The translations under genes were made by a program, and so were the position numbers. Positions 6,626-32,994 of a stretch of DNA of 40,000 bases are shown one piece after another. Position 1 is the stretch's first letter. The number at the start of each line of letters is the position of its first letter. This DNA is from Methylibium sp. (GTDB lineage: Bacteria; Pseudomonadota; Gammaproteobacteria; Burkholderiales; Burkholderiaceae_C). The DNA lies in NCBI RefSeq assembly GCF_965279545.1, contig NZ_OZ257250.1, forward strand, positions 445,005 through 485,004. Direction: 5' to 3'. A model generated the notes under the pieces. The model did not search any database, was not told the DNA's origin, and was given only the letters and a program-made list of their open reading frames with translations.

Positions 6626-8686
<2,061 letters not shown>

Positions 8687-17171: not shown

Positions 17172-18704
17172 ATGATTCGTCCTGATTCCGTGGTGATTCC
17201 TCCAGCCGTCGGCCCGGGAGTTCTTCCCGACGTGCCTTCCGTGCAGCCCGTGCCGCCGGTGCAAACGCCGCTGGAGCTGCCGCGCCTGGTGATGCGCGGC
17301 GCGCTGGTGGTGGTGCTGGGTGCGCTGCTGCTGGCATTGCTGGTCGGCTTGTGGCGCGCGCGCGAGGACATGCGCGACGAACTCTCGGGAGCGCTCGCCC
17401 AGGCCGAGATGAGCGCCTTGCTGATCGCCGCGAACACGATCGACGACGAACAGCTGGTGGCCGCGGTGCGTTCGCTGCGCGACGCGGGCGGATCGCGGCA
17501 CCTCGACGTGCGGCTGCTCGATGGCGCCGGGCGAGTGCGCCTGGAGCCGCGGCCGGAGCAGCCCGCCTCGGCCGTGCTCGGCGTGCTGGTGCAGCTCAAC
17601 CGCGTGCTGTTCGCCCCGCCGCGGGCGCAGACGGTGGCCGCCGTCCTGCCGCGACCGGACGGGCCGGCCTGGCAGGTGCAGTGGATCGCCTCGCACAACA
17701 GCGAGCAACGCGAGAAGCTGGTGCAGCTGGTCGAGATGCTGAGCCTGCTGGCCGGTTGCGGCCTGGTGATGCTGCTGGTGATGCACTGGCGCGTGCGGCG
17801 CTCCTTCCGTGCACTCGCGCCGCTGCTGTCGGCCATTGCCGGGGTCGAGCGGCAGGACCTGTCGGCGGTGCGGGCGCTGCCCGCGATGCCGATCCGCGAG
17901 CTCGACGTCATCGCCCACGCGCTGCGCCACCTGGCCGTGGCGCTGGAACAGGCCGAGACCCGGCGCCGCGTGCTCGGCACCCAGGTGCTGACCTTGCAGG
18001 AGGACGAGCGCAGCCGCCTCGCACGCGAACTGCACGACGAACTCGGCCAGCACCTGACCGCGCTGCGCGTCGACGCCAGCTGGCTGCAGCGCAGGCTGGC
18101 CCACGAGCCCGAGCTCGCGGCCGTGGTCGCAGGCATGAGCGAGCAGTGCTCGCGCATCCAGAACGAGGTGCGCGCGCTGTTGACGCGGCTGCGCCCGCTC
18201 GGCACCGCAGACGCGTCGCAGCCCGACGGCGGCGAGAGCGTCGGGCGCCTGCGCGTGCTGCTCGAGACGCTGGTGCAGGCCTGGGTGCAGTCGCCGGGGC
18301 AGACCACGCGCTACGCGCTGGCGTTCGAGTGCACCGGCTTCGACGCCGACGACCGGCTGCCGCGCGAGCTGGTGCTGACGGTCTACCGCATCAGCCAGGA
18401 GGCGCTCACGAACGTGGCCCGCCATGCGCGCGCGCGCCAGGCACGGCTGAGCGTGCGCATCGAGCGGACGGCCGGCGCACCGAGCGCCTTGCTGGAGTGG
18501 TCGGTCGAAGACGACGGCTGCGGACTCGACCACCCCGGCGCCTGGCAGCGCGGCAACGGCCTGGCCGGTGTCAAGGACCGTGTCTGGTCTGCCGGCGGGG
18601 ATCTCGAATGGCAGCCAGCGACCGCGGCTGCAGACGGGCGACCCGGACTGAAATTGCACGCGCGGCTGCCGTTTGCCGCGATCGGACAGGAGAGTGTGTC
18701 GTGA
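17172..18704 (+). CDS. HisKA_3-type sensor histidine kinase (NarX/LiaS class); start uncertain (17172 or 17292)
   Basis: Frame of ORF 16953..18704. Two TM segments, H-box LARELHDELGQHLTAL, and ATPase motifs EALTNVARHA and DDGCG. Confidence 0.8.
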   Translation: MIRPDSVVIPPAVGPGVLPDVPSVQPVPPVQTPLELPRLVMRGALVVVLGALLLALLVGLWRAREDMRDELSGALAQAEMSALLIAANTIDDEQLVAAVRSLRDAGGSRHLDVRLLDGAGRVRLEPRPEQPASAVLGVLVQLNRVLFAPPRAQTVAAVLPRPDGPAWQVQWIASHNSEQREKLVQLVEMLSLLAGCGLVMLLVMHWRVRRSFRALAPLLSAIAGVERQDLSAVRALPAMPIRELDVIAHALRHLAVALEQAETRRRVLGTQVLTLQEDERSRLARELHDELGQHLTALRVDASWLQRRLAHEPELAAVVAGMSEQCSRIQNEVRALLTRLRPLGTADASQPDGGESVGRLRVLLETLVQAWVQSPGQTTRYALAFECTGFDADDRLPRELVLTVYRISQEALTNVARHARARQARLSVRIERTAGAPSALLEWSVEDDGCGLDHPGAWQRGNGLAGVKDRVWSAGGDLEWQPATAAADGRPGLKLHARLPFAAIGQESVS

Positions 18705-19363
18705 CTGTGAGCCATTTGCCGGGGCCCTTGCGGGTCGCACTGGCCGACGACCATGCGGTCGTGCGTGCCGGCTACCGCCGCCTGCTGGAGCTGGAGGCCG
18801 ACATCGCGGTCGTCGCCGAGTACGGCGATGCCGAAGCGGCCTACAACGCGCTGACCGGCGGAACCGGCGACGACATCGACCTGCTGGTGCTGGACCTCTC
18901 GATGCCGGGTCGCAGCGGCCTCGAGCTGCTGCGCCGGCTGGCCCAGCGGCGCCCCGACCTTTCAGTGCTGGTGTTCACGATGCACGACAGCGCGGCGATG
19001 CTCGACCAGTGCCTGCGCGCCGGCGCGGCCGGCTTCGTGACCAAGAGCAGCGCCCCCGAGGTGCTGGTCACGGCGGTGCGCCAGGCCGCGCGCGGCGAGA
19101 TCGCGCTGTCACCCGACGTGGCCGCGCTGGCGGCGCGCACCGAGGGCGGGCCGCCGCACACCCGGCTGTCGAGCCGCGAGTTCGACATCCTGCAGCAGCT
19201 GCTCGCCGGCCACAGCGTCGAGGAGATCGCGCAGACGCTGCGCCTGAGCACGAAGACAGTGGCCAACTACCAGACCCGCATCCGCCAGGCCTTGGGCGTG
19301 GGCAGTGCGGTGGAGTTGCTGAACTACGCGCGCGAGCATGGGCTCGGCGGGCCGGGGCTGTAG
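18701..19363 (+). CDS. NarL/FixJ-family response regulator (REC + LuxR HTH)
   Basis: GTG at 18701 forms a GTGA overlap with the kinase stop. DLLVLDLSMPG receiver motif. C-terminal LSSREFDILQQLLAGHSVEEIAQTLRLSTKTVANY. Confidence 0.85.
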   Translation: MTVSHLPGPLRVALADDHAVVRAGYRRLLELEADIAVVAEYGDAEAAYNALTGGTGDDIDLLVLDLSMPGRSGLELLRRLAQRRPDLSVLVFTMHDSAAMLDQCLRAGAAGFVTKSSAPEVLVTAVRQAARGEIALSPDVAALAARTEGGPPHTRLSSREFDILQQLLAGHSVEEIAQTLRLSTKTVANYQTRIRQALGVGSAVELLNYAREHGLGGPGL

Positions 19364-19636
19364 CGCTGCGGTGGCTGTTGCGATGTGCGGGCCGCGTCTG
19401 GCTTCTTGTCGATGCGTGATGTAAAGCAGTCATCGACATCGAAGTGGGAGAGGGGTCTTGCCGCTTCCAGGGATCAACTTGTCCGGCGCCGCGTTCAGTT
19501 AGGCCGCCTAAATCGCCTGCGCTCGACAGAAAAAATGGTGTCCTTCTTCTATGGCGAGCAGAAATTGTCCACACGCGGAGGGATTGCGTTAGTGGGCGGC
19601 GCTCCGTGCTAACGCGCGGGGCGCCGCTTAGGCCAG

Positions 19637-19900
19637 TTAGTTAGCCAGGTAGGGGCACCAAGGCCCGGAACGATAGTGCTGAACCACGTTTTCCCAACGG
19701 CCGAATCTGAATCGGACGTAGGCACGGACGTGGGTGCACTTTTGGCGGAAGGTGGTGTGCATGGCACAACTCCCATTCACGTTGGCGATCCGGCGGTGAT
19801 CACCGGGGCTCTTGCGGAATGGGTGGCGCGAACACGCGAGGCTGCGGTCGACAGGATGGTCCTGTCGACCGTAAAATCGAGGGGCTCGCACCACCATCAC
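19637..19900 (-). CDS. hypothetical 87-aa basic protein (weak call) in the low-GC island
   Basis: ORF track entry. My hand count gives GC3 of ~70% (61/87), similar to the neighbouring island gene. No recognisable motif. Contains the 25-bp palindrome. Confidence 0.25.
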   Translation of the reverse strand: MMVVRAPRFYGRQDHPVDRSLACSRHPFRKSPGDHRRIANVNGSCAMHTTFRQKCTHVRAYVRFRFGRWENVVQHYRSGPWCPYLAN

Positions 19901-20078
19901 GCTATAGCGTGTCGGTGGGCGCTAGTCACCGGTTGGGCCTCTCTGGCTGGTCGGTGCGCTCAGCCTGCGCTGCCTGCTGTGGCATTGGTTGAACATCGCG
20001 CCCCCCTTGATTCGTACTCTCGGGGGGCGCACCTACTTCTGGGGCGCATGTTAGCAGGATTTCAGCTCTCACAACGCT

Positions 20079-20107
20079 TTGACGCCAAATCTGTGTTCAA
20101 ATTAAGT
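20079..20107 (+). promoter_or_regulatory. candidate sigma70 promoter for the 328-aa island gene
   Basis: TTGACG (20079-20084), 17-nt spacer, TTAAGT (20102-20107), ~37 nt upstream of the ATG at 20144. Confidence 0.3.
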
Positions 20108-20143
20108 TCTGGCGCCAACCGGCGGCAGAGCAAGGAGAACACC

Positions 20144-21130
20144 ATGTCCCGTGGGCCGGCCTACCCCTACGTAAATTTGGGTGACGCGATCACCCTCACT
20201 AGAAAACTCTTCGATTTCGCGAAACGCGGGGCGGCAAACCTCAACGCGGTTCTCAAGGACAAGTGGGACTACAGCCCGACCAGCAGCAGCGCCGGAAAGA
20301 TCGTCGCCGCGCTGAAGTATTACGGTCTGATTGACGTGCTGCCCGCACCGGCCGCTGGGGGCGGTGAATCAATCCGAATCACAGACAGGGCCTACAGAGT
20401 TCTCGTCGACGATGAGAAGTCACCCGAGCGTATCAAGGCGCTAAAGGAAGCGTGCCTCGCTCCCAAGGCATACAACCTTTGTTGGACGACATGGGGGCGC
20501 GATCTTCCTGAATCTATGCGTTCCACCCTCATTTTCAGCCACGGCTTCAATGATTCGACGGTCGACAACTTCTTGACCAACTACAAGAAATCGATTCAGT
20601 TTGCTGGCTTGCTGGAGCCGGAATTAGCAAAAAGCCAAGATCCAGAGCGCGTCGATTCAAAAAAGAACAAACACAACATCGGGGACTACGTACAATGGGA
20701 GCACGAAGGCGTTCTTGGCTTTCCGAAGGCTCTTAGGCTCGTGAAGTTCTCGGACGACGAAGCGTTTGCATGGGTCGAAGGGCACACAACGGGGTTGCCG
20801 GCGCATGAACTGATCGCGGCCGAAGCGCCGCCTATGGTCGTGAACAAGGGCGATACCGCGTCGCGGGTAATCGAAGTCGGCGCGGGCCGCCTTTCGACCA
20901 GCGGTCAGGCCCCCCGCGTGCCCCCACAGAAGGGGAACGGAATGAGACAAGAAGTCTTGTCGCTAGACGAAGGCGAAGTTGTATTGCAGTGGCCGGCCAA
21001 CATCGGTACGAATGGCGTCGCCGACATGGAAGAGTGGGTGAAGTTCCTGCTTAAGCGGCTGCAGCGCTCTTTGAGAGAGACGCCCAACAAGACGGAACCG
21101 TCGGATAGACCCACTGACGCAGCTTCGTGA
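20144..21130 (+). CDS. hypothetical protein, 328 aa, no confident family assignment
   Basis: AAGGAGAA Shine-Dalgarno sequence lies 5 nt upstream of the ATG at 20144, in the frame of ORF 19676..21130. Followed by a terminator. Lower GC than the host genes. Confidence 0.7.
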   Translation: MSRGPAYPYVNLGDAITLTRKLFDFAKRGAANLNAVLKDKWDYSPTSSSAGKIVAALKYYGLIDVLPAPAAGGGESIRITDRAYRVLVDDEKSPERIKALKEACLAPKAYNLCWTTWGRDLPESMRSTLIFSHGFNDSTVDNFLTNYKKSIQFAGLLEPELAKSQDPERVDSKKNKHNIGDYVQWEHEGVLGFPKALRLVKFSDDEAFAWVEGHTTGLPAHELIAAEAPPMVVNKGDTASRVIEVGAGRLSTSGQAPRVPPQKGNGMRQEVLSLDEGEVVLQWPANIGTNGVADMEEWVKFLLKRLQRSLRETPNKTEPSDRPTDAAS

Positions 21131-21140
21131 ATTGAAAGAC

Positions 21141-21170
21141 AAAGGTGCCCATGAGGCGCCTTTGCTTTTC
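21141..21170 (+). terminator. rho-independent terminator of the island gene
   Basis: AAAGGTGCC-catga-GGCGCCTTT (9 bp including one G-U pair), followed by GCTTTTC. Confidence 0.6.
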
Positions 21171-21242
21171 TGGTCTGCCCCGTCAAGTCCATCATTGCCA
21201 AAATAATATTCGCTCTAAGTGACCGGAGCACCACGCTAGTTC

Positions 21243-21476
21243 ATGCTTCTCACCTTGTTCCTCGCGCTGTGTGTGTTCCACATAGCGACCATCATCCTCA
21301 TCAGAGTCACGAGCGGCGACATCTTCGCCAATCTGAAGGCTGATCTTCCAACTGTCATGCGTCGCCTCAAGGAACGCCGGCCGGTTGCTCATCGCGTCTA
21401 CCAGGTGTCGCTCGGCCTTCCACTCGTGTACCTGGTCATGATGGTTGGCGCCAAGTTGCTTGATCTCGCCTTTTAG
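21243..21476 (+). CDS. hypothetical small membrane protein, 77 aa (weak call)
   Basis: Hydrophobic N- and C-terminal segments (MLLTLFLALCVFHIATIILI..., LGLPLVYLVMMVGA). Hand-counted GC3 is 73% against 62% for the overlapping antisense ORF 21192..21629. No good Shine-Dalgarno sequence. Confidence 0.3.
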   Translation: MLLTLFLALCVFHIATIILIRVTSGDIFANLKADLPTVMRRLKERRPVAHRVYQVSLGLPLVYLVMMVGAKLLDLAF

Positions 21477-21647
21477 GTCCGTTGAACTTCTTGCAGCGTT
21501 CCCACCGTCATGTGGGGGCACCGGCGCAATGGAAAGCGTGGCCGCGATGGCGAGGTTATGTCGCGGTCCGGTGACGCAGGGGGAGCCCAAGCTGTGTGAA
21601 TGGGTTGGCCAGGCATGGAAGCCAGCCATCTGCGTTGCCGCCCGCCT

Positions 21648-22382
21648 TCAGCCCTCGTCCATCAACTCCATCACGAGCCGGCCGCCGAACACCAGCCCGC
21701 TCGACCCGACCAGCTCCTCGCGCTCCAGCCGCACCAGGCCGACGCCGGGGCAGTACCACTCGCGCGCGACGATGGGCACGTCGCGCCAGCCGCCCACCGA
21801 GCTGGAGAAGATGCGCACCTGGCCATTGCCCTCCGCCTTGGTGCAGCCGCTGTAGCGGCGGCCATCGGACTCCACCGCCGCGTCGACCGCGGTGATGCTG
21901 AACAACATCGGCACCGTGGGGAAGCGGTAGCGCGACTCGCGCGGGTAGTTGGTGTTCTCGAGCAGCAGGTAGGGCGTGGTGTCGGTCTGCCACTGGGTGC
22001 CAACGGTGTAGGGGGCCTTGAGCACGTAGCGGCGCGCGGCGTCGGGCTGCGGTCCGGCGTCGATCTCGCTCTTGCTGGCGACGCGGTAGATGCCGCTGTC
22101 GTCGGCGCGCAGCCAGTAGTCGGCGCCGCCATCGCTGTGGCGATGCCAGGCGGGGCCGGGGTCGGCAGCTTGTTCCACCGTCAGCACGTCCGGGGCAAGG
22201 GTGCGCAGCGTCAGGGTCTCCTGCGCGCGGCTGTTGTCCTCGAGATCGCTGGTCGAGCGGTAGACCCAGGTCCGGCCCGGCTCCAGCGGGAACAGCTTGG
22301 TCGCGGCGGGCGGCTTGCCGCAGCCGCCGAGGAGGGCCGCCAGCAGCGGCAGGCCCAGGGCGAGAGCGCGGCGCATGCTCAT
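21648..22382 (-). CDS. lipoprotein of unknown function (fourth gene of the MotA/ExbB-like operon)
   Basis: MSMRRALALGLPLLAALLGGCG is a signal peptide with a lipobox. The ATG at 22382 forms an ATGA overlap with the upstream stop. Alternative ATG at 22376. Confidence 0.75.
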   Translation of the reverse strand: MSMRRALALGLPLLAALLGGCGKPPAATKLFPLEPGRTWVYRSTSDLEDNSRAQETLTLRTLAPDVLTVEQAADPGPAWHRHSDGGADYWLRADDSGIYRVASKSEIDAGPQPDAARRYVLKAPYTVGTQWQTDTTPYLLLENTNYPRESRYRFPTVPMLFSITAVDAAVESDGRRYSGCTKAEGNGQVRIFSSSVGGWRDVPIVAREWYCPGVGLVRLEREELVGSSGLVFGGRLVMELMDEG

Positions 22383-22873
22383 TTCTCCGGCAGCTGGGGC
22401 TTGGGCAGGTCGCGGATCTTCACGTCCTGCTCGTCGCGGCCCGGTCGCAACCAGGCCAGGCCCTTGCGGCCAGCCTTGGGCTCCGCGGTGCCGAGCTGGC
22501 TGACGCCCTGACGGGACCTCTTCATGCCCTCGTTCAGCAGTCCGTGCAGGTCCTTGGCGTAGGGCAGCCGGTAGGCACGCGGCTCCAGGGCCGGCTTGCC
22601 GTCCTCGATCGCGTTCAACCAGACGTACAGCGCACCGGGGTGCGAAGCGGTCGGCTCGTCGATCACGGCCGAGAGCAGGACGAAGCGCGGCGGCAGGGCT
22701 TCGGCCGCGGGCAGCCCCCAGACCGCCTGCAGCACCGCGGCGGCGTGGAAGTACAGCACCGTGACGCCGGCGACCAGCAGGCCTTTGAGCCACGCAGGCC
22801 AGCGCGAATAGAACAGCGCGAGGGCAGTCAGCGCGAGCAGGACCGCATAGGTGATGGCGATGGAAAGCGTCAT
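22379..22873 (-). CDS. membrane protein of unknown function (two predicted N-terminal TM helices)
   Basis: ATG at 22873 (MTLSIAITYAVLLALTALALFY...LLVAGVTVLYFHAAAVL) in the frame of ORF 22379..23524. 14 nt downstream of the preceding stop. Confidence 0.65.
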   Translation of the reverse strand: MTLSIAITYAVLLALTALALFYSRWPAWLKGLLVAGVTVLYFHAAAVLQAVWGLPAAEALPPRFVLLSAVIDEPTASHPGALYVWLNAIEDGKPALEPRAYRLPYAKDLHGLLNEGMKRSRQGVSQLGTAEPKAGRKGLAWLRPGRDEQDVKIRDLPKPQLPEK

Positions 22874-22887
22874 GGCAAGGGGGCGGG

Positions 22888-23493
22888 TCAGAGTTGCTGC
22901 ACCAGGGTCTTGGGCAGGGTGTTGATGTTCGCGACGCTGCCGTCGGGCTGCACGGTGAAGCGCAGTGCCGTGGCCTCGTCGCCTTTGCGCGCGAGCTTGA
23001 CGGTGCCGTAGTACGCGACCTCGGCACGCGGGTTGACCTTCACGAGCGACACCGTCGCCTCGACGGGCTCGCCGTTCTTGCTCTCGTAGTACTGCACGTT
23101 GACCGTGTACTCGCCGGGCGCGACGCCTCTGAGCGTGACCACCTCCTGGTTCAGCGGGTTCACGATCTGCTTGCCGTTGACGACGATGGTGTCGTTCGCG
23201 AGGCCGCGGTCGTCGCGGTCGAGGTGCATCAAGCCCGCTTCGCGCGCACGGAACCACACCAGCTCGCCGTTGGGGTCCTGCACCCAGGTGTCGAGGTCGT
23301 TCGGGTTGTAGTCGGGCCAGCTGACGGTGATGATGAACTCCGCCTTGGCCGGGATGTCGCCGGCCTTGAGCGCCTTCGGGTTCATCGCCAGCAGCGCGAT
23401 GATGAAACAGAAGACGAAGGCGATCAGCATGTTGAACAACATGTCGTAGAACGGGTCGACCTCGACCTCGCGGGTACGACGATGTCGGCTCAT
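22888..23493 (-). CDS. ExbD/TolR-like single-TM protein with a non-canonical periplasmic beta-rich domain
   Basis: 201 aa. RTREVEVDPFYDMLFNMLIAFVFCFII carries an Asp at the start of the TM helix, as in ExbD/TolR/MotB. The C-terminal DLDTWVQDPNGELVWF...LDRDDRG...GEYTVNVQYY does not look ExbD-like. Confidence 0.65.
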   Translation of the reverse strand: MSRHRRTREVEVDPFYDMLFNMLIAFVFCFIIALLAMNPKALKAGDIPAKAEFIITVSWPDYNPNDLDTWVQDPNGELVWFRAREAGLMHLDRDDRGLANDTIVVNGKQIVNPLNQEVVTLRGVAPGEYTVNVQYYESKNGEPVEATVSLVKVNPRAEVAYYGTVKLARKGDEATALRFTVQPDGSVANINTLPKTLVQQL

Positions 23494-24236
23494 GCCTTCG
23501 TCCCGGGCGCCGGCCCGCCGTCACGTGCGCCGTGAGTCAGCCCGTGGCGCTGTGCATCGGCGACCAGCGCATCGGCATAGCGGTCCAGGCGCGTCAGCTG
23601 CAGCCCGAGCAGGATGTTGCCGACCAGGCCGACCATCGTGGTCAGCAGCGCGATGCCCAGGCCCGAGGTCAGGCTCTTGAGCAAGGCCTGGGACTGCGCG
23701 GCGTCGAAGCTTTCGGTGTGGCCGATCTGGATCGCGAGGATCGAGAAGCCGATCACCTTGCCGAGCAGGCCGAGCTTGAGCTGGATGCCGTTGACCCACC
23801 ACGCGGTGGCGTGCGGGCCATGGGTCTGCTCCATCAGCACGTCCAGCGGCGCGTCGAAGTCGGTCGGTCGCTGCGCGAGGGCCGCCCAGTAGTCGGCCAC
23901 CCATCCGGCGCCGTCGCGCCGGCCGGTGGTGACCGCATGGTGCAGCGCGGCGCGCTGCTGCTGCAGTTCGCGCGCGCGCCGCCCGGCCCAGAAGGACGCG
24001 GCGACGAAGACCACCAGGATGACCAGCGTCAGTCCGGTCGGGTCGGAGCTCAGTAGCAGGCCCCACACGCCGCGCACGCCGAGCAGCCAGGTGCCGAAGC
24101 CCAGCAGTCCGACCAAGGCCAGCCACTCGAGCCAGATCGGCTCGGGCAGCGTGCTGCCGCGCAGCGCAGCGCCGGTGCGGCGGTTGTCGGTGGCGGCCGT
24201 CATGCGCCGCCGCCGCAGCGTGACGATGGCCCACAT
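23490..24236 (-). CDS. MotA/TolQ/ExbB proton-channel family protein; start 24236 or, more likely, 24203
   Basis: C-terminal LGLLGKVIGF...LTSGLGIALLTTMVGLVGNILLGLQ matches the MotA_ExbB signature. ATGA overlap with the downstream gene. Confidence 0.75.
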   Translation of the reverse strand: MWAIVTLRRRRMTAATDNRRTGAALRGSTLPEPIWLEWLALVGLLGFGTWLLGVRGVWGLLLSSDPTGLTLVILVVFVAASFWAGRRARELQQQRAALHHAVTTGRRDGAGWVADYWAALAQRPTDFDAPLDVLMEQTHGPHATAWWVNGIQLKLGLLGKVIGFSILAIQIGHTESFDAAQSQALLKSLTSGLGIALLTTMVGLVGNILLGLQLTRLDRYADALVADAQRHGLTHGARDGGPAPGTKA

Positions 24237-24283
24237 CGCGTGGGCATTGGGGCCCGGTGTTGCCGGGCGAACTTCGACCGCAT
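24200..24283 (-). CDS. 27-codon upstream ORF / possible leader peptide (MRSKFARQHRAPMPTRCGPSSRCGGGA)
   Basis: GGAGG-cagcc-ATG gives ideal Shine-Dalgarno spacing at 24293-24281. Its TGA (24202-24200) overlaps the in-frame MotA-like ATG at 24203 as ATGA. Confidence 0.3.
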   Translation of the reverse strand: MRSKFARQHRAPMPTRCGPSSRCGGGA

Positions 24284-24414
24284 GGCTGCCTCCGTGTCGG
24301 TTGGACGTCCCGACCGTCGGCGGCAGGCCGGACCGACGGTGCTGAGGGGGTGAATTCGTTGCCGATGTTAGACAGGCTGCGCGCTTTGGCGCAGGGCAGT
24401 TTGCCCGCCGTGGG

Positions 24415-25218
24415 TCAGGCGCCGCCGCCGCGCTTGGCGAGCTGCCCGAAGCCGCGCTGCGGGTCGTAGCCCCAGCACGCCAGCGCGAAGAAGACCGCGA
24501 GGCAGCCGAGCACCACCCAGGGTGCTGCTCCGGGGTCCTGGCCGTACAGCGCGAGGCGGATCCATTCGACGGCGTGCGTGAAGGGGTTGAGGCGGGCCAC
24601 CTGGTGGATCCACCCGGTGCCCGACGCCTGCAGCTGCGGCAGCGGGTAGAGCGCGGTCGACAGGAAGTACATCGGGAAGATGACGAAGTTCATCGTGCCG
24701 GCGAAGTTCTCCAGCTGCTTGATGTGCACCGACAGCAGCAAGCCGACCGCGCCGAGCATCAGCGCACCGGCCAGCAGCGCCCCCAGGGCATGCAGGCCGC
24801 CCCACGACGCGACCGGCAGGTCGGTGCCGATCAGCAGCGCCACCGCCACGAAGGCCAGCGCCTGCAGCGCCGACAGCAGCGCCGTCGCGCACAGCTTGCA
24901 GAACAGCAGCCACGGCCGCGGCAGCGGCGCGGTGAGCAGCAGGCGCATCAGGCCCATCTCGCGGTCGTAGACCATCGACAGCGAGGACTGCATGCCGTTG
25001 AACAGCAGCACCATGCCGACCAGGCCGGGCACGATGTAGACGTCGTAGGGTTGCTGCAAGCTCGCGTCGGCGACGTGGCGAAAGCCGGCGGCGAACACGG
25101 CCAGCCAGAGCAGCGGCCGCACCAGGGCCGACACCCACCGGCCGGTCTGCTGCGAGAACTTCAGCAGTTCGCGCATCACGATGGCCCGAAGCGCCTGCAG
25201 CGCATGCCGGGCTCTCAT
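24415..25218 (-). CDS. ABC-2 type transporter permease
   Basis: ATG at 25218 (MRARHALQALRAIVMRELLKF...) in ORF 24415..25989. About 6 hydrophobic segments. ATGA overlap with the ATPase gene. Confidence 0.85.
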   Translation of the reverse strand: MRARHALQALRAIVMRELLKFSQQTGRWVSALVRPLLWLAVFAAGFRHVADASLQQPYDVYIVPGLVGMVLLFNGMQSSLSMVYDREMGLMRLLLTAPLPRPWLLFCKLCATALLSALQALAFVAVALLIGTDLPVASWGGLHALGALLAGALMLGAVGLLLSVHIKQLENFAGTMNFVIFPMYFLSTALYPLPQLQASGTGWIHQVARLNPFTHAVEWIRLALYGQDPGAAPWVVLGCLAVFFALACWGYDPQRGFGQLAKRGGGA

Positions 25219-25964
25219 CGGCGCTCCCGGGGCGCTGCGGCATCGGCGCTGCCGCTGGTGCGCGCGATGAAGCCCTGCTCCAGCGTCGGCTCGCCGAGCG
25301 CCGCCGTCACCGCGGCGGGCGTGCCGTCGGCCAGCAGCTCGCCCTGGTGCAGCACCAGCACCCGGTCGGCCGGCGCGGCCTCCTCGACCCAGTGCGTGGC
25401 CCACAGCACGCACACGCCGCGCGTTCGCACGTCCTCGCGCAGGGCGGCGAGCAGGTCGTGGCGCGACTTCGGGTCCAGGCCGACGGTGGCCTCGTCCATC
25501 AGCAGCACGGCGGGGCGGTGCAGGCCGGCCCGCACCAGCTCGACCTTGCGGCGGTTGCCCCCCGACAGCTCGCGCACCTTGCGGTCGAGCTCGGCGCCGA
25601 GGCCGAAGCGCGCACCGTCGGTGGCGATGCGCTCGTTGGCGAGGGCGCGCGGCAGGCCGTGCAGGTCGGCGTGAAACAGCAGGTTGCGGCGCACGCTCAG
25701 GTCCAGGTCGAGCGAGATCTGCTGGAACACCACACCGATGTTGCGCAGCGCCGCAGGGGCGTCGTGGCGCAGCGAGTGGCCGGCGACTTCGACCTCGCCC
25801 TCGTCGGCCGCGAACAGGCCCGTCAGCACCTGGAACAGCGTGGACTTGCCGGCGCCGTTCGGACCGAGCAAGGCGGTGAATTCGCCGGGGCGCAGCGTGA
25901 GCGTGAGGGACTTCAGGGCCGTGCGCTCGCCGTAGCGCTTGGTCAGCCCGCGCACGCTCAGCAT
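25215..25964 (-). CDS. ABC transporter ATP-binding protein
   Basis: Walker A GPNGAGKST, signature LSGGNRRKV, Walker B VLLMDEAT. GGGAGG Shine-Dalgarno sequence upstream. Confidence 0.9.
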   Translation of the reverse strand: MLSVRGLTKRYGERTALKSLTLTLRPGEFTALLGPNGAGKSTLFQVLTGLFAADEGEVEVAGHSLRHDAPAALRNIGVVFQQISLDLDLSVRRNLLFHADLHGLPRALANERIATDGARFGLGAELDRKVRELSGGNRRKVELVRAGLHRPAVLLMDEATVGLDPKSRHDLLAALREDVRTRGVCVLWATHWVEEAAPADRVLVLHQGELLADGTPAAVTAALGEPTLEQGFIARTSGSADAAAPRERR

Positions 25965-26025: not shown

Positions 26026-27297
26026 TCACCGGGTCTCGACGGCAGCCGGCTCGGCGCAGTGCCGGGCGTCGCGCCCGTCGTCGGACAGCGTGCGCGAGTT
26101 CGCGTCGGAGCGGTACCACAGGCTGCCGCTGCGCGCCGCGCCCGGCACGAAGCGCAGCGGCTGGGCGGCGACGGTCGGTATGTTCTTCGCGTCCTGCACC
26201 GCGGCGTCGAGCGTGGCGTCGATCAGGTGGCGGTCGGGGCTCTTCGGGCACACCGGATCGGTGGCCGCCGCATCGCCGGTGACGAGGAAGGCCTGGCAGC
26301 GGCAGCCGCCGTGGTCGATCGGGTGCTGGTCGCAGGACAGGCAGGTCTCGCTCATCCACGAGGTGCCGCGGTAGCGGTTGAAGGCGTCGCTGTCGCGCCA
26401 GATGCTCGCGATGCTGTGCTCGGTGACCTTGGGGAAATCGAAGCCGGGCAGCATGCGCGCGCTGTGGCAGGGCAGTGCCGTGCCGTCGGGTGCGATCACC
26501 ATGAACACCGCGCCCCAGCCGGCCATGCAGGGCTTGGGCTTGGCGTCGACGTAGTCGGGCGAGACCCACAGGATCTTCATGCGCCCGGCCAGCCGCTGGC
26601 GGTGGCTGTCGACGATCGCCTCGGCATCGCGCAGGTCGTCGGGCGTGGGCATCAGCGCGGCGCGGTTCAGCCAGGCCCAGCCGTAGTACTGGGTGTTCGC
26701 CAGTTCCAGGAACTCGGCGCCCATGCGCTCGGCCATGTCGATGATGCGGCCCACGTGCGGCAGGTTGTAGCGGTGCATCACGCAGTTGAGCACCATCGGG
26801 TAGCCGAGCGACTTGATGATCGCGGCCACCTTGTTCTTGTGCTCGAAGGTGCGCGTCGACGACAGGAAATCGTTCAGCTCCTTGGTCGAGTCCTGGAAAC
26901 TGAGCTGGATGTGGTCCAGCCCGGCGTCCTTCAGCGCGCGCGCGCGCTTCTCGGTCAGGCCGATGCCGGAGGTGATGAGGTTGGTGTAGTAGCCGAGCTG
27001 GCGCGCCTCGGCGACCAGCTCTTCGAGGTCGTCGCGCAGCAGCGGCTCGCCGCCGGAGAAGCCGAGCTGCACCGCGCCCATCTTGCGGGCCTCGCGGAAC
27101 ACGCGCTTCCAGTCTTCCGTGCCGATCTCGCTCATGTGGGCGGCGTAGTCGGTCGGGTTGGAGCAGAACACGCAGTGCAGCGGGCAGCTGTAGGTCAGCT
27201 CCGCGAGCAGCCACATCGGCGCGCCGGGCGCAGACCGGAGCTGGCCCGAGGGCACGCCCATGTCGTGCACTTCCTCAGACGATCCAGTTGCGTTCAT
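26026..27297 (-). CDS. pqqE: PQQ biosynthesis radical-SAM protein PqqE (alternative start 27261)
   Basis: WLLAELTYSCPLHCVFCSNP is a CxxxCxxC radical-SAM motif. SPASM-like Cys clusters lie near the C-terminus. Follows pqqD. Confidence 0.9.
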   Translation of the reverse strand: MNATGSSEEVHDMGVPSGQLRSAPGAPMWLLAELTYSCPLHCVFCSNPTDYAAHMSEIGTEDWKRVFREARKMGAVQLGFSGGEPLLRDDLEELVAEARQLGYYTNLITSGIGLTEKRARALKDAGLDHIQLSFQDSTKELNDFLSSTRTFEHKNKVAAIIKSLGYPMVLNCVMHRYNLPHVGRIIDMAERMGAEFLELANTQYYGWAWLNRAALMPTPDDLRDAEAIVDSHRQRLAGRMKILWVSPDYVDAKPKPCMAGWGAVFMVIAPDGTALPCHSARMLPGFDFPKVTEHSIASIWRDSDAFNRYRGTSWMSETCLSCDQHPIDHGGCRCQAFLVTGDAAATDPVCPKSPDRHLIDATLDAAVQDAKNIPTVAAQPLRFVPGAARSGSLWYRSDANSRTLSDDGRDARHCAEPAAVETR

Positions 27298-27544
27298 AGG
27301 CGCTTTGCAAGAACTCGTTCACATCGGCGCGCAGGTCGGTCTGGCCGAAGGCGCGCTCGAGGTCGGCAGTGATGTCGGTCACGCTGGCCTGGCCGTCGCA
27401 GCGCTTGAGGATTTCCGTGGCCGGTACGTTGAGCTTGACCAGGCCCTCGGGGTAGAGCAGCACCCAGCAGTCCTGCGCCGGCTCGAACTGCAGGCGGTAC
27501 ATCGGCGCGAGGCGCGGGCAGGCGGTGTCGGTGACGGCGCTCAT
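27275..27544 (-). CDS. pqqD: PQQ biosynthesis peptide chaperone PqqD
   Basis: 89 aa. ...YRLQFEPAQDCWVLLYPEGLVKLN..A.EIL..CDG is PqqD-like. Lies between pqqC and pqqE. Confidence 0.9.
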   Translation of the reverse strand: MSAVTDTACPRLAPMYRLQFEPAQDCWVLLYPEGLVKLNVPATEILKRCDGQASVTDITADLERAFGQTDLRADVNEFLQSAYERNWIV

Positions 27545-27599
27545 TGGGCCCCTCCGTGCTGCGCACTCCGGTATTCGCCCTTGGGACGGCCCGGCGCGC

Positions 27600-28334
27600 T
27601 CATGGTCGGCGGTCCTCGGTCAGGTCGTCGGGGTAGGCGCGCTCGACGGCGTCGAGCATCGACCACAGCACGTCGAGCTTGAACTGCAGGATCTCGATCG
27701 CGCGCTCCTGCTTCGCGCGGGTGTCGCCGAACGCGATGGCGACCTCGAGCCCGTGCTCCACGTCGCGCTGCGCCAGCGGGATGCGGCTGCGGAAATAGGC
27801 CAGGCCCTCGGCGGCGATCCACGGGTACATGCTGGGCCAGCCGGCCAGCCGGTCGGCGTGGATCTTGGGTGCGAACATCTCGGTCAGCGAGGAGATCACG
27901 CCCTCGCGCCAGGGCGCACGGCGCGCGAAGTTCACGTAGGCGTCGACCGCGAAGCGCACGCCGGGCTGCACGTGGCGGTGCGACCACAGGTCCTCGCGGC
28001 TCAGGCCGACGGCCAGCCCCAGGCGTGTCCAGGTTTCGATGCCGCCGGCGTTGGGGCCTTCATGATCGCCATGGCCGTCGTGGTCGAGGATGCGATCGAT
28101 CCAGCGGCGCCGCGTGGCGCGGTCCTCGCAGTTGGCCATCACCGCGGCGTCCTTCATCGGGATCGCCTGCTGGTAGTAGAAGCGGTTGGCGACCCAGCCG
28201 CGCACCTGGAAGGGCTGCAGGGCACCGCTGTTGAGCCGCTTGTTGAAGGCGTGGTGGATGTGATAGCCGGACTCCTTGGCACGCAGGCGCGCCTCGAACT
28301 CCGCGGGTGACCAGGGCAGCAGGGCGGTACTCAC
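27600..28334 (-). CDS. pqqC: pyrroloquinoline-quinone synthase PqqC
   Basis: 244 aa, GTG start. ...[16 protein letters not shown]...[11 protein letters not shown]... is PqqC-like throughout. Confidence 0.95.
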
Positions 28335-28450
28335 AGCACGTGGTCTCCGTCGTGTTGAAGCCGATCGACGGCCTGGCGGTCGACCACCGGCGCTGTTCGC
28401 TCGCTTCGATCCCCGCTGCGCGGGGCCCCTCTTGCGCGGCTCACAGCACG
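28330..28450. repeat. 11-bp perfect direct repeats bracketing a 110-bp pqqB/pqqC spacer
   Basis: ctcacagcacg occurs at 28330-28340 (covers the pqqC GTG start) and again at 28440-28450 (covers the pqqB stop). A second shared block (tctcc..gtcgtg) follows each copy. Confidence 0.8.
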
Positions 28451-29373
28451 ATCTCCATGCCGTCGTGCGCGACCTCGATGCCGCGGCGTGCGAGCTCGGC
28501 GCGTTCGAGGCCGTGGTCGTCGAGGATCGGGTTGCTGTTGTTGATGTGGATCAGCAGCTTGCGGCGGGCCTGCGTGCGGTCCAGCGCGTCCATCATGCCG
28601 GCGCGCTGCGGCGAACTGCTCTGCGGCAGGTGCCCCATGTCGGCGGCGAGCTTGCTGCCGAGGCCGGCCTGTACCATCTCGTCCTCGGTCCAGAAGGTGC
28701 CGTCGACGAGCAGGCAGTCGGCGTTGCGCATCCACTCGAGTTCGACGTCGCCCACGTCGGCCAGGCCCGGCGCATAGAACAGCCGCTTGCCCGACAGGCG
28801 GTCGGTGACTTCCAGCGCGATGTTGTCGCCGACCTTCGGGTCGTGCCGGTGCGGCGAATAGGGCGGCGCCTTGCCGGGGATCGCGACCGCCCGAAAACGC
28901 AGCGTCTCGAAGCCGTCGATGACGAACTCGGCCATGCGCTGCTCGCCCGCGACCGGCAGCATGTGCCAGCGCACGCCGCAGTAGTGGTCGAGCACGGTGA
29001 GGATCGGCAGGCCGGTGGTCAGGTCCTCGAACACGCAGGGCGTGACGTAGAGCTCGATCGGCGGCCCTTCGCGCAGGCTCAGCAATCCGGTCGCGTGGTC
29101 GATCTGCGCGTCCATCAGCACCACGGCCTTGATCGGCGAGTCGCGCAGGCCGTGCTTCGGCTGCAGTGCCGGCTGCAGGCGCAGCTGCTGGCCGATGTCG
29201 GGCGACGCATTCAGCAGCACCCAGCGCTGGCCGTCCGGCGAGATCGCGATCGAACTCTGCGTGCGTGGGCGGATCAGCCGCGAGCCGTTGCGCGCGGCCG
29301 CGCACATCGTGCAGTTGCAGTTCCACTGCGGGCAGCCGCCTCCCGCGCCGGAGCCGAGCACCAGGACCTTCAC
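28441..29373 (-). CDS. pqqB: PQQ biosynthesis protein PqqB (metallo-beta-lactamase fold)
   Basis: 310 aa, GTG start. [21 protein letters not shown]... is the typical PqqB N-terminus. Confidence 0.9.
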
Positions 29374-29659
29374 TGCGCACTCCGGCGTCTGTCGCGCCGG
29401 TCGATCATCACCAACATCGCTTCCCCTCGTCGTCTTCAGTCCCGCGCGAAATCACGCACACTGCGGGCTCGCAACCGAACGCTACCCGTGCCCTTGCGGT
29501 AACGCCAGCCCGTCATGATTTTCTTCCGAGCCACGCATGGGGCCTTGCGCATGCCGCGCAGGGCGTCCGTGTTACGGCAGCTTGCCCGGCGGTCGTCTCT
29601 CCACCGGCGCCTGGAGGTTCACGCACGGTGCGCGGTGGCCGCAACCCCGCATTGACCCT

Positions 29660-30894: not shown

Positions 30895-30897
<3 letters not shown>
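30862..30897 (-). repeat. stop-codon-adjacent conserved motif, copy C
   Basis: Read on the minus strand from the regulator stop: TGACACGG CCTTGCATTCAAACGCATC AGATCG. Confidence 0.6.

Positions 30898-32994
<2,097 letters not shown>

What the first reader, a model, noticed from the sequence alone, without database searches (positions are those of the whole stretch)
21648..24293. Tightly coupled MotA/ExbB-like + ExbD-like-TM + membrane + lipoprotein operon with no canonical partner: candidate undescribed ion-driven envelope module
Four minus-strand genes are joined by ATGA overlaps (23490-23493 and 22379-22382) and one 14-bp gap.
- Gene 1 carries the MotA/TolQ/ExbB channel signature (LGLLGKVIGF...GIALLTTMVGLVGNILLG).
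- Gene 2 has an ExbD/TolR/MotB-like N-terminal TM helix with the membrane Asp (VDPFYDMLFNMLIAFVF). Its ~150-aa periplasmic part (DLDTWVQDPNGELVWF..HLDRDDRG..GEYTVNVQYY) is neither ExbD/TolR-like nor an OmpA-type peptidoglycan anchor. From memory it resembles the DLD-x-V-x-DPNGE beta-sandwich of DUF2135/YfaP-type proteins, which I could not verify.
- Gene 3 is a 2-TM protein with a soluble tail.
- Gene 4 is a lipoprotein (LLGGC lipobox).
No TonB, TolA, Pal, flagellar or Zorya-type partner is adjacent. A stator-like unit wired to a new periplasmic domain plus a lipoprotein would be a distinct PMF-coupled system. The operon also borders a low-GC island.
Basis: partly seen in the sequence, partly recalled or inferred. 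Interest (0 to 1): 0.7.

Follow-up and report, generated by a model that had tools for sequence, protein, structure and literature searches.

The report
Unannotated MotA-like envelope motor cassette
Four tightly coupled genes beside the PQQ cofactor operon encode an undescribed relative of the proton-driven Ton/Tol/flagellar-stator motors; its three-gene core also occurs in over two hundred phage contigs, so it is probably a new type of ion-powered cell-envelope machine whose job is unknown.

Summary
Four minus-strand genes (21648-24236) are joined by two ATGA overlaps and a 14-bp gap.

- g1 is a divergent MotA/TolQ/ExbB channel protein.
- g2 has an ExbD/MotB-like N-terminal helix with an invariant Asp, followed by a confidently modelled beta-sandwich that is neither ExbD-like nor OmpA-like.
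- g3 has two TM helices, a small domain and a conserved C-terminal LPPxKLPEK-type motif.
- g4 is a DUF3108-like lipoprotein.

g2 and g3 match no Pfam, NCBIfam or PADLOC model.

1. The conserved unit is g1-g2-g3. It occurs in the same order in 78 of 80 fetched viral contigs, in Rhizobium phages including 16-3, and in Azospirillum.
2. g4 was found only in the Burkholderiales loci.
3. In Burkholderiales the cassette nearly always sits in PQQ / quinoprotein alcohol-dehydrogenase clusters. Here the order is pqqBCDE, a PedA1/PedC-type ABC transporter, then g1-g4.

A lineage-specific paired change (g1 Thr160 to Lys, g2 Leu13 to Asp) fits g2's helix lying inside a g1 ring.

Best reading: a new Ton/Tol-like ion-driven module, recruited in this genome to periplasmic PQQ metabolism. 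Function and stoichiometry are inferred, not shown. I found no paper describing it.

The parts
23490..24236 (-). g1: divergent MotA/TolQ/ExbB-type channel subunit with four predicted TM helices and a short cytoplasmic loop. The start may be the ATG at 24203.
   Evidence: PF01618 scores 18.8 bits, below the 22.9 cutoff, on the TM3-TM4 hairpin. 12 of 14 family members hit PF01618, best E=1e-9. A family profile against PDB sequences finds TolQ E=0.027, ExbB 0.2, ZorA 0.3 and MotA 3.7. LGLLG(K/T)V and TT motifs are invariant or nearly so.
22888..23493 (-). g2: ExbD/TolR/MotB-like N-terminal TM helix bearing Asp17, a roughly 15-residue linker, and a periplasmic beta-sandwich (residues 53-191) rich in invariant acidic residues.
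   Evidence: AF2 model has pLDDT 90.7, with a helix at 14-36 and 11 strands. D17 is invariant in 167 of 167 fetched loci, as are W59, D66, D68, D94, D95, G97, E117 and G127. No Pfam, NCBIfam or PADLOC family matches. There are weak PPC, DUF2135 and protease beta-jelly-roll similarities.
22379..22873 (-). g3: two TM helices, a small beta-rich domain, and a tail ending in a conserved VKIRDLPxPQLPEK-type motif. It is the third universal subunit of the cassette.
   Evidence: A g3 HMM finds a homologue directly after g2 in all 80 viral loci and nearly all bacterial loci. AF2 gives pLDDT 67.6, with helices 2-22 and 27-52, five strands and one helix. The C-terminal motif is shared by bacteria and phages. 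No fold or family match.
21648..22382 (-). g4: lipoprotein (lipobox LLGGC, Cys21, Gly at +2) of the DUF3108-like family with two invariant Cys. It is a lineage-specific accessory subunit.
   Evidence: 8 of 10 orthologues hit PF21347 DUF3108_like, best E=4.2e-5. The lipobox is kept in 9 of the 10 aligned orthologues, and C180 and C211 are invariant. It was found only in the Burkholderiales loci.
24200..24283 (-). 27-codon upstream ORF preceded by GGAGG. Its TGA overlaps the in-frame ATG 24203 of g1 (ATGA). It may be a coupling leader; conservation was not tested.
   Evidence: Read directly from the sequence.
24415..25218 (-). PedC-type ABC-2 permease, immediately upstream on the same strand. 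It lies 178 bp before g1, with no terminator-like site in between.
   Evidence: 72% identical to the L001 permease, which matches TIGR03861 at 357 bits. ATGA overlap with the ATPase gene. No terminator found.
25215..25964 (-). ABC ATPase of the 'PQQ-dependent alcohol dehydrogenase system' (PedA1-type).
   Evidence: TIGR03864 scores 329.6 bits, above the cutoff of 302.25.
26026..29373 (-). pqqE, pqqD, pqqC and pqqB (PQQ biosynthesis), upstream on the same strand.
   Evidence: PqqB matches TIGR02108 at 397 bits. ORF translations and orthologous loci support the rest.
30895..32994 (-). Sigma-54-dependent activator (GAF-PAS-AAA-HTH). It recurs upstream of the cassette in related genomes.
   Evidence: Pfam Sigma54_activat E=1.6e-55. 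Present in 36 of 80 related loci.
17200..19363 (+). HisKA_3 sensor kinase and LuxR-type response regulator (PedS/PedR-like), convergent with the cassette as in Ideonella. Coordinates are approximate.
   Evidence: tblastn to the L001 kinase (42%) and regulator (58%); Pfam annotation of L001.

Best explanation
g1, g2 and g3 form a previously undescribed branch of the MotAB / ExbBD / TolQR class of ion-driven inner-membrane machines.

Shown:
- g1 carries the channel hairpin of that superfamily.
- g2 has a single N-in TM helix with an invariant Asp near the cytoplasmic end, followed by a novel beta-sandwich.
- g3 always follows g2.
- The three genes travel together in bacteria and phages.

Inferred:
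- g1 forms a ring around a g2 dimer. Ion flow through the Asp site drives a conformational or rotary cycle.
- g1 has almost no cytoplasmic domain (about 170 aa in phages), so the work is delivered in the periplasm. It would pass through g3, a membrane-anchored tether with a conserved C-terminal motif, playing the part that TonB or TolA plays for ExbBD or TolQR.
- In Burkholderiales a probable outer-membrane DUF3108-like lipoprotein (g4) was added as the distal partner, giving a Tol-Pal-like layout.
- The module has been wired into the operons that make PQQ and encode the PedA1A2BC-type transporter. Its physiological role there most likely concerns the periplasmic quinoprotein alcohol-oxidation system: handling of the cofactor or metal (PQQ, Ca2+ or lanthanide), or keeping the envelope intact while alcohols are oxidised.
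- Phages carry the bare core, presumably to impose the same envelope activity on infected cells.
For: Superfamily membership of g1: PF01618 is the only Pfam family hit, in 12 of 14 members. PDB profile hits are TolQ, ExbB, ZorA and MotA, on the TM hairpin only. In the fetched loci T200 is invariant, and T160 is invariant in viral copies.

g2: Asp17 is present in 167 of 167 loci and Asn21 is nearly invariant. The N-terminus has five positive charges before the helix. The AF2 model has pLDDT 90.7.

Physical coupling of g1 and g2: in the Burkholderiales loci g1 position 160 is Lys (79 of 81) where viral copies have Thr (82 of 82). In the same loci g2 position 13 is Asp (82 of 83) where viral copies are hydrophobic. 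This is a charge-compensating pair at the place where ExbB Thr148 faces ExbD Asp25 (positions recalled from the ExbBD literature).

Obligate trio: g1-g2-g3 in order in 78 of 80 viral loci, with no other conserved neighbour. The trio is also present in an alphaproteobacterial MAG, a marine bacterial contig, Azospirillum and Rhizobium phages.

g3 as tether: the positively charged TM1-TM2 loop places its domain in the periplasm (reading of A5). Phage copies have Gly/Glu/Asp-rich linkers. The C-terminal PhixFxxLPPxKLPEK motif is shared across bacteria and phages.

PQQ link:
- 55 of 80 Burkholderiales loci have PqqB or a PqqB-like gene within 6 kb.
- 49 of 80 have the PedC permease, usually directly upstream.
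- 15 of 80 have pqqC and pqqE.
- The neighbours match TIGR03864, 03866, 03863 and 03861.
- A second, about 50%-identical clade also sits beside pqqBCDE and a PQQ dehydrogenase.
- No terminator separates the ABC genes from g1.
Against: - No experiment, multimer model or structure exists. Stoichiometry, ion dependence and rotation are all extrapolated from relatives.
- The window g1 itself is below Pfam's gathering score (18.8 against 22.9 bits).
- g3 shows no similarity to TonB or TolA by sequence or fold. Its model is only moderately confident (67.6), so the 'TonB-like adaptor' role rests on anatomy alone.
- The Lys/Asp pair is probably one evolutionary event, so it is suggestive, not statistical.
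- Lys in place of the pore Thr could even mean the Burkholderiales version no longer conducts ions.
- The PQQ link cannot explain the phage, Azospirillum or marine copies, which have no PQQ neighbours. It may reflect co-regulation rather than shared function.
- A second PQQ-linked clade lacks Asp17 and has Glu/Asp13 instead.
- The window has no PQQ dehydrogenase, TonB-dependent receptor, PedA2 or PedB within 40 kb.
Confidence: 0.5

Rival explanations
1. It is a conflict module of phage origin, such as superinfection exclusion, a Zorya-like envelope sensor, or control of host membrane potential and lysis timing. The bacterial copies are domesticated or hitch-hiking, and the PQQ neighbourhood is incidental.
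For: At least 225 viral contigs encode g2 relatives, many on contigs of 100-527 kb. The trio is the only conserved block there, amid terminase, head protease, sigma factor and Hsp20 genes. It is present in temperate rhizobiophage 16-3 and in T4-like rhizobiophages. The only known MotAB relative without a transport or motility role, ZorAB, is an anti-phage system. g1's best PADLOC hits are ZorA.
Against: PADLOC hits are insignificant (E=0.02-0.08) and g2-g4 have none. There is no cytoplasmic effector or long ZorA-like tail. Burkholderiales copies have host-like GC. They are 75-92% conserved across genera in fixed metabolic operons, not in defence islands. A second bacterial clade independently sits beside pqq genes.
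Confidence: 0.2
2. It is not a force-generating motor but a gated ion or metal pathway, or a sensor. The acidic beta-sandwich of g2 would bind Ca2+ or lanthanide in the periplasm, and the g1/g2 channel would conduct or signal it. This would complement the PedA1/PedC transporter that supplies metal for PQQ dehydrogenases.
For: g2 has an invariant acidic cluster (D66, D68, D73, D92, D94, D95, D101, E117) in a fold weakly resembling Ca-binding PPC and beta-jelly-roll domains. The cassette lies next to the ABC transporter that P. putida needs for lanthanide-dependent growth. The outer-membrane route for lanthanides in P. putida is stated to be unresolved (PMC12997753). The pore Thr is replaced by Lys specifically in the PQQ-linked clade.
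Against: The same acidic residues are invariant in phage copies with no PQQ or lanthanide context, so they are more likely structural Ca2+ sites. No known MotA/ExbB relative acts as a metal transporter. Metal binding was not tested.
Confidence: 0.15
3. It is an ordinary extra ExbB-ExbD or TolQ-TolR paralogue that energises a TonB or TolA encoded elsewhere, for instance for the TonB-dependent receptor found near the cassette in some relatives.
For: g1 is in the ExbB/TolQ superfamily. One UniRef record names a g2 orthologue 'Biopolymer transporter ExbD'. A TonB-dependent receptor lies within 6 kb in 9 of 80 loci.
Against: g2 matches no Pfam family including ExbD PF02472, PF02472 is absent from the listed matches of 40 family members, and g2 has a different periplasmic fold. 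g1 has four TM helices and a minimal cytoplasmic loop, unlike ExbB or TolQ. A dedicated third subunit, g3, is always present. The window has no TonB-dependent receptor.
Confidence: 0.05

Closest known systems
ExbB-ExbD-TonB (Ton system)
   Same: A MotA/TolQ/ExbB-type channel subunit, a partner with a single N-in TM helix carrying an essential-looking Asp, and a third membrane-anchored periplasmic protein. The genes are translationally coupled. A TonB-dependent receptor lies nearby in some relatives.
   Different: g1 has four TM helices and almost no cytoplasmic domain. g2's periplasmic domain is a beta-sandwich, not the ExbD alpha/beta fold, and does not match PF02472. g3 has two TM helices and no TonB C-terminal domain or detectable homology.
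TolQ-TolR-TolA-TolB-Pal
   Same: The overall layout matches in Burkholderiales: inner-membrane motor, tether and a probable outer-membrane lipoprotein. TolQ is the best PDB sequence hit for the g1 profile (E=0.027).
   Different: There is no TolB. g4 is DUF3108-like and not an OmpA-type peptidoglycan binder like Pal. g2 and g3 are unrelated to TolR and TolA. The phage and alphaproteobacterial copies lack the lipoprotein altogether.
MotA-MotB / PomA-PomB flagellar stators
   Same: Four-TM topology of the A subunit. The Asp sits near the cytoplasmic end of the B-subunit helix. A short segment links the helix to the periplasmic domain.
   Different: No large cytoplasmic torque-generating domain, no OmpA-like peptidoglycan-binding domain, and no flagellar genes nearby. 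There is an extra obligatory subunit, g3.
ZorA-ZorB (Zorya anti-phage system)
   Same: A non-motility, non-transport MotAB relative tied to phage biology. It gives weak PADLOC hits to g1.
   Different: No long ZorA cytoplasmic tail, no ZorC/D-type effectors and no peptidoglycan-binding ZorB domain. The hits are insignificant. This cassette is carried by phages themselves and by metabolic operons.
GldL-GldM / PorL-PorM (gliding and type IX secretion motor)
   Same: The B-type subunit carries beta-sandwich domains in the periplasm, and the output is periplasmic rather than cytoplasmic.
   Different: GldM uses an Arg/Glu pair rather than an Asp and has a long multi-domain periplasmic stalk. No sequence relation was detected, and the taxa and gene context differ.

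Membership tests
MotA/TolQ/ExbB proton channel superfamily (PF01618): g1 | Significant match to the family profile | tested here: met
   The window protein scores 18.8 bits, E=0.0014, below the 22.9 gathering score. However, 12 of 14 aligned family members match PF01618 and nothing else, best E=1e-9. Precomputed unmarked Pfam hits exist for homologues in L083, L170 and L171.
MotA/TolQ/ExbB proton channel superfamily (PF01618): g1 | C-terminal TM hairpin with conserved GLLGT(V) and (T)T pore residues | tested here: met
   In the fetched loci G156, G159 and G163 are invariant apart from one gapped row, and T200 and G203 are invariant. Position 160 is Thr in 82 of 82 viral copies but Lys in 79 of 81 Burkholderiales copies, including the window. 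The profile aligns to TolQ residues 136-196.
MotA/TolQ/ExbB proton channel superfamily (PF01618): g1 | Pentameric ring around a dimeric partner (5:2) | not testable with these tools
   No multimer prediction was available. The only indirect hint is the paired K160 (g1) / D13 (g2) change.
ExbD/TolR (PF02472): g2 | N-in single TM helix with a conserved Asp near the cytoplasmic end | tested here: met
   Helix 14-36. D17 is present in 167 of 167 fetched loci. The N-terminus has five Arg/His before the helix. Exception: the P0244/L171 clade has Glu/Asp13 and Val17.
ExbD/TolR (PF02472): g2 | Periplasmic ExbD/TolR alpha/beta domain and a profile match | tested here: not met
   No Pfam match for the window protein at E<=1. 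PF02472 is absent from the 25 most frequent of 39 families matched by 40 members. The model is all-beta after the helix.
MotB/Pal/OmpA-type stator anchor: g2 | C-terminal OmpA-like peptidoglycan-binding domain | tested here: not met
   No OmpA Pfam, NCBIfam or PDB hit. The fold is a beta-sandwich.
DUF2135 / PPC-type beta-sandwich: g2 periplasmic domain | Significant profile match | tested here: inconclusive
TonB / TolA force transducers: g3 | Single N-terminal TM helix, Pro-rich or helical spacer, and a TonB/TolA C-terminal domain | tested here: not met
   g3 has two TM helices. There is no TonB or TolA Pfam hit among 18 members at E<=1. No fold match. Only the general layout of anchor, linker and C-terminal motif is analogous.
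ComEC N-terminal DUF4131 (TM helices + OB fold): g3 | Profile match to PF13567 | tested here: inconclusive
   5 of 18 members match weakly, best E=0.0058, over the TM region. hhalign against the E. coli YcaI N-terminus gives probability 0.2%. Foldseek lists only insignificant small-barrel proteins.
DUF3108-like lipoproteins (PF21347): g4 | Profile match plus a lipoprotein signal peptide | tested here: met
   8 of 10 orthologues match PF21347, best E=4.2e-5. The window copy itself has no hit at E<=1. The lipobox Cys is kept in 9 of 10.
Zorya (ZorAB + effectors) | ZorA with a long cytoplasmic tail, ZorB with a peptidoglycan-binding domain, and ZorC/D/E/F/G effector genes | tested here: not met
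   PADLOC gives g1 E=0.018-0.076 only, over about 60 residues, and no hits for g2-g4. No effector genes are adjacent.
PQQ-dependent alcohol dehydrogenase system (TIGR03861-03866 neighbourhood) | Co-location with the marker genes of that system | tested here: met
   The window ATPase matches TIGR03864 at 329.6 bits, above 302.25. L001 neighbours match TIGR03866, 03863 (348.9 bits, below its 413.6 cutoff) and 03861. Recurrence across 80 loci is shown. g1-g4 themselves have no NCBIfam model.

The most novel reading that the evidence does not exclude
The cassette is a new class of ion-driven envelope motor with its own dedicated force transducer (g3), independent of TonB and TolA. Phages spread it widely to re-energise or remodel the host envelope during infection. 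Proteobacteria have domesticated it, adding a DUF3108-like lipoprotein, to traffic or retain the periplasmic cofactor or metal (PQQ, Ca2+, lanthanide) of quinoprotein dehydrogenases. That step currently has no known machinery.
Probability: 0.25. Interest if true: 0.9.

Novelty: new variant of a known kind. Interest (0 to 1): 0.72.

Why it matters
Ion-driven MotAB-type motors are known from only a handful of systems: flagella, Ton, Tol, gliding/type IX secretion, Agl and Zorya. Each new one has revealed a new way of delivering energy to the envelope.

- **A new branch.** This cassette would add a branch with a new axle domain and a new third subunit. Phage copies have the smallest A subunits seen in this analysis, about 170 aa.
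- **Phage biology.** Its presence in over two hundred phage contigs, including jumbo phages and the classical rhizobiophage 16-3, suggests an unrecognised phage strategy acting on the host envelope or membrane potential.
- **PQQ physiology.** Its fixed position beside pqq genes and the PedA1A2BC-type transporter gives a concrete candidate for open questions. These include how lanthanides cross the outer membrane where no LutH-type receptor exists (stated as unresolved in PMC12997753). They also include how PQQ, which can diffuse out of the cell (PMC12124388), is kept or loaded in the periplasm.
- **Tractability.** Workable systems exist: Methylibium petroleiphilum, Piscinibacter sakaiensis, Azospirillum brasilense and phage 16-3.

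Tried and rejected
1. Canonical ExbD/TolR or MotB identity for g2 was rejected: no profile match and a different fold.
2. Zorya or another PADLOC defence system was rejected: only insignificant ZorA hits.
3. Fold matches gave nothing useful.
   - Foldseek of the g2 model against PDB found no hit at E<=1e-3.
   - Foldseek against BFVD found only four weak hits to uncharacterised phage proteins.
   - Foldseek of the g3 model against PDB found nothing.
4. PHROGs gave only g2 to phrog_1735, of unknown function (E=5e-6). The rhizobiophage proteins have no PHROG hit.
5. g3 as a ComEC-like DUF4131/OB module remains a weak lead, not supported by hhalign against E. coli YcaI.
6. Profile searches of g2, g1 and g4 against PDB sequences gave only marginal hits.
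7. Sigma-70 promoter, terminator and sigma-54 promoter scans around the operon found nothing informative.
8. No tRNA flanks the low-GC island.
9. No pqqA-like peptide was recognisable upstream of pqqB.
10. Eight literature searches and four papers found no description of the cassette.
11. The first genome scan with the 40-sequence alignment failed for lack of a conserved stretch.

Full report
**Observation.** The window is a high-GC Burkholderiales sequence. The closest proteins are from Methylibium, at 93-95% identity. On the minus strand there are four genes:
- g1, 23490-24236 (in-frame alternative ATG at 24203);
- g2, 22888-23493;
- g3, 22379-22873;
- g4, 21648-22382.

They are linked by ATGA overlaps at 23490-23493 and 22379-22382 and by a 14-bp gap.

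The stated end, 24293, is not the g1 start. It is the GGAGG of a 27-codon upstream ORF (24283-24200) in another frame, whose stop overlaps ATG 24203 of g1. GC falls to 0.57-0.62 just downstream, at 20-22 kb.

**What the four proteins are.**

*g1.* It gives only a sub-threshold PF01618 match: 18.8 bits against a cutoff of 22.9, on residues 155-227. However, 12 of 14 aligned family members match PF01618 and nothing else, best E=1e-9. A family profile finds TolQ (E=0.027), ExbB (0.2), ZorA (0.3) and MotA (3.7) among PDB sequences, always on the last two TM helices. g1 has four predicted TM helices and a cytoplasmic loop of about 60 residues. Phage versions are only about 150-210 aa, median 174.

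*g2.* It has no hit in Pfam, NCBIfam or PADLOC.
- An AF2 model built on 40 diverse homologues is confident (pLDDT 90.7). It shows a TM helix at 14-36, a roughly 15-residue low-confidence linker and an 11-strand beta-sandwich at 53-191.
- The fold search found no significant PDB match.
- Sequence profiles show faint similarity to Ca-binding beta-jelly-roll/PPC domains and to DUF2135.
- Asp17 in the helix is present in all 167 copies I fetched. So are W59, D66, D68, D94, D95, G97, E117 and G127.

*g3.* It has two TM helices, a small beta-rich domain (model pLDDT 67.6) and a conserved extreme C-terminus. This reads VKIRDLPxPQLPEK in Burkholderiales and F(H/Y)ELPPxKLPEK in many phages. It has no fold or family match.

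*g4.* It is a lipoprotein. The lipobox is kept in 9 of the 10 aligned orthologues, and two Cys are invariant. It belongs to the DUF3108-like family: 8 of 10 orthologues match, best E=4.2e-5.

**Co-conservation.** The g2 family is large. It has 3966 clusters at 90% identity and 1784 representatives at 50% identity. At least 583 hits occur among the representative genomes of 185,579 species.

In the 80 best genome loci, all Burkholderiales-like, g1-g2-g3-g4 occur in the same order in 76. Three exceptions are cut by contig ends. One, L082, has lost g3 and g4. g2 is far more conserved (72-92%) than g1, g3 or g4.

**The real unit is a three-gene core, and it is common in phages.**
- A 53%-identical copy in an alphaproteobacterial MAG has only g1-g2-g3.
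- Copies at 36-38% identity lie on phage contigs carrying gp32, T4 baseplate or phage metallopeptidase genes.
- A scan of IMG/VR found at least 225 viral contigs with g2 relatives (39-47% identity among the 80 best), many of 100-527 kb.
- In 78 of the 80 fetched viral loci, HMMs for g1, g2 and g3 hit three consecutive, often overlapping genes. The other two loci are truncated.
- No other gene is conserved beside them. The neighbours are ordinary phage genes: large terminase, head protease, sigma factor, Hsp20.
- Among cultured phages, only 29 Rhizobium/Sinorhizobium phage records carry it. These include temperate phage 16-3 (p038, p040, p042) and T4-like RHph_N34 (gp145-147).
- The trio is also on Azospirillum brasilense chromids and on a marine bacterial contig.
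- g4 was found only in the Burkholderiales loci.

**Genomic context in bacteria.** In the window the cassette follows, on the same strand:
- pqqB-C-D-E;
- an ABC ATPase matching TIGR03864, 'PQQ-dependent alcohol dehydrogenase system' (329.6 bits, above the cutoff);
- a PedC-type permease.

No terminator-like site lies in the 178-bp gap. A sigma-54 activator lies further upstream, and a HisKA_3/LuxR two-component pair is convergent downstream.

Across the 80 Burkholderiales loci three arrangements recur (counts approximate):
- PqqB-like, PedA1, beta-propeller, binding protein, PedC, g1-g4, TctC (about 45 loci);
- sigma-54 regulator, PqqB-like, g1-g4 (about 18 loci);
- sigma-54 regulator, pqqBCDE, g1-g4 (about 14 loci).

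The neighbours match TIGR03866, TIGR03863 (below its cutoff) and TIGR03861.

A second clade, about 50% identical, has three genes plus a periplasmic SNase-like gene. It also lies beside pqqBCDE and a PQQ dehydrogenase. Another copy sits among tetrahydromethanopterin genes. The PedA1A2BC transporter is required for lanthanide-dependent growth of P. putida, whose outer-membrane lanthanide route is unresolved (PMC12997753).

**Evidence that g1 and g2 touch as in known motors.** In the fetched Burkholderiales loci, g1 position 160 is Lys in 79 of 81 copies. This is the Thr of the LGLLGTV motif, equivalent to the pore Thr of ExbB/TolQ by alignment. It is Thr in all 82 viral copies and in the alphaproteobacterial copy.

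In the same loci, g2 position 13, one turn before Asp17, is Asp in 82 of 83 copies. It is hydrophobic in all viral copies. A charge-compensating pair at the pore is what a ring-and-axle geometry predicts. It is probably a single evolutionary event, so it is only suggestive.

**Mechanism proposed.**
- Shown: superfamily membership of g1, the invariant TM Asp and new fold of g2, the obligatory trio, and the PQQ neighbourhood.
- Inferred: a g1 ring around a g2 dimer uses ion flow at Asp17. g1 has almost no cytoplasmic mass, so output is periplasmic. It would pass through g3, whose TM1-TM2 loop is positively charged, placing its domain outside. g3 also carries, in phages, Gly/Glu/Asp-rich linkers and a conserved terminal motif.
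- With g4 as a probable outer-membrane partner (Gly at +2, by the E. coli rule), the Burkholderiales version resembles Tol-Pal in layout.
- Its role is most likely tied to periplasmic PQQ-dependent alcohol oxidation: cofactor or metal handling, or envelope maintenance under alcohol stress. The phage copies show that the core activity is more general.

**Rivals.**
- A phage-derived conflict or host-takeover module: plausible for the phage copies, weak for the metabolic operons.
- A metal-binding channel or sensor: the acidic cluster fits, but it is equally invariant in phages.
- An ordinary ExbBD/TolQR paralogue: rejected by the domain tests.

**Comparison with the literature.** A 2025 survey of MotAB homologues divides them into flagellar and 'generic' ion transporters, and notes members of unknown function. 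It describes B subunits with compact peptidoglycan-binding folds. The text search of that paper found no mention of a beta-sandwich (0 occurrences), and none of the twelve passages shown (22 hits in all) describes a phage-borne cassette (PMC12505986). A 2022 review of 5:2 motors does not mention one either. All source names for g2, g3 and most g1 orthologues are 'hypothetical protein'.

**Verdict.** The evidence enlarges it: an unannotated three-gene MotA/ExbB-type cassette shared by phages and Proteobacteria, here extended by a lipoprotein and embedded in the PQQ system. It is a new variant of a known kind of machine, and its function is unproven.

Noticed in passing
window 24200-24293 (minus strand): A 27-codon ORF (MRSKFARQHRAPMPTRCGPSSRCGGGA) with a GGAGG Shine-Dalgarno sequence five bases upstream. 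Its TGA overlaps the in-frame ATG 24203 of g1 (ATGA). It may be a translational-coupling leader between the ABC genes and the cassette.
   Followed up: no
window about 19600-21650: Low-GC stretch (0.57-0.62) with a long ORF, 19676-21130, that has no Pfam match. It lies where 41 of 80 related loci carry a conserved TctC/Bug-family periplasmic binding-protein gene right after g4. It looks like an insertion that replaced that gene. No tRNA flanks it. PQQ is a tricarboxylate, so the usual TctC neighbour may matter for function.
   Followed up: partly
g1 residue 160 (window about 23757-23759) and g2 residue 13 (about 23455-23457): Lineage-specific paired change. The pore Thr of LGLLGTV is Lys in Burkholderiales, and a hydrophobic residue one turn before the TM Asp of g2 becomes Asp. 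It is absent from all phage copies.
   Followed up: yes
L171 3850-4506, L172, and protein P0244: A second PQQ-linked clade of g2 lacks Asp17 (Val instead). It carries Glu/Asp at position 13 and Lys at position 21, while its g1 keeps Thr. The acidic site has moved one helical turn. This clade has a signal-peptide SNase-like gene directly upstream of g1.
   Followed up: partly
g3 C-terminus, window 22382-22423; also L157, L094, L170, L173: A short terminal motif (PhixFxxLPPxKLPEK) is shared by bacterial and many phage g3 proteins. In phages it sits behind Gly/Glu/Asp-rich linkers. It looks like a docking peptide for an unknown partner.
   Followed up: partly
window 33895-37157 (plus strand): An aldehyde:ferredoxin oxidoreductase (AFOR_N/AFOR_C, E=1e-135) is followed by a pyridine-nucleotide-disulphide oxidoreductase domain, next to the PQQ region. 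A second sigma-54 activator lies at about 6695-8245. Together they suggest an alcohol/aldehyde oxidation island.
   Followed up: no
window 29374-29760 (minus strand): No recognisable pqqA peptide (E-x3-Y motif) was found upstream of pqqB in any frame. The precursor gene may lie elsewhere.
   Followed up: partly
L168 736-2176: g1 and g2 are called as one 411-aa protein, followed by a 72-aa remnant of g2. This is most likely a frameshift or assembly error rather than a true fusion. The context is tetrahydromethanopterin (C1) metabolism.
   Followed up: no
L173 (Azospirillum brasilense Sp7 chromid NZ_CP012915.1, about 985-987 kb): A cultured, tractable alphaproteobacterium carries the g1-g2-g3 trio between an amidase gene and purU, with a PhyR-like regulator nearby and no PQQ genes. 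tblastn reports two places per Azospirillum record, so there may be a second copy.
   Followed up: partly
L020, L059, L060, L063, L064, L070, L079 (genome contigs record titles): MAG records titled Chitinophaga pinensis, uncultured Bifidobacterium sp. or Bordetella parapertussis carry loci 78-84% identical to the Methylibium g2, with Burkholderiales-type pqq context. These titles look like taxonomic mislabels.
   Followed up: no
L082 6001-7700: This is the only full-length Burkholderiales locus where g3 and g4 are missing. The TctC gene follows g2 directly, suggesting a natural partial loss of the cassette.
   Followed up: no
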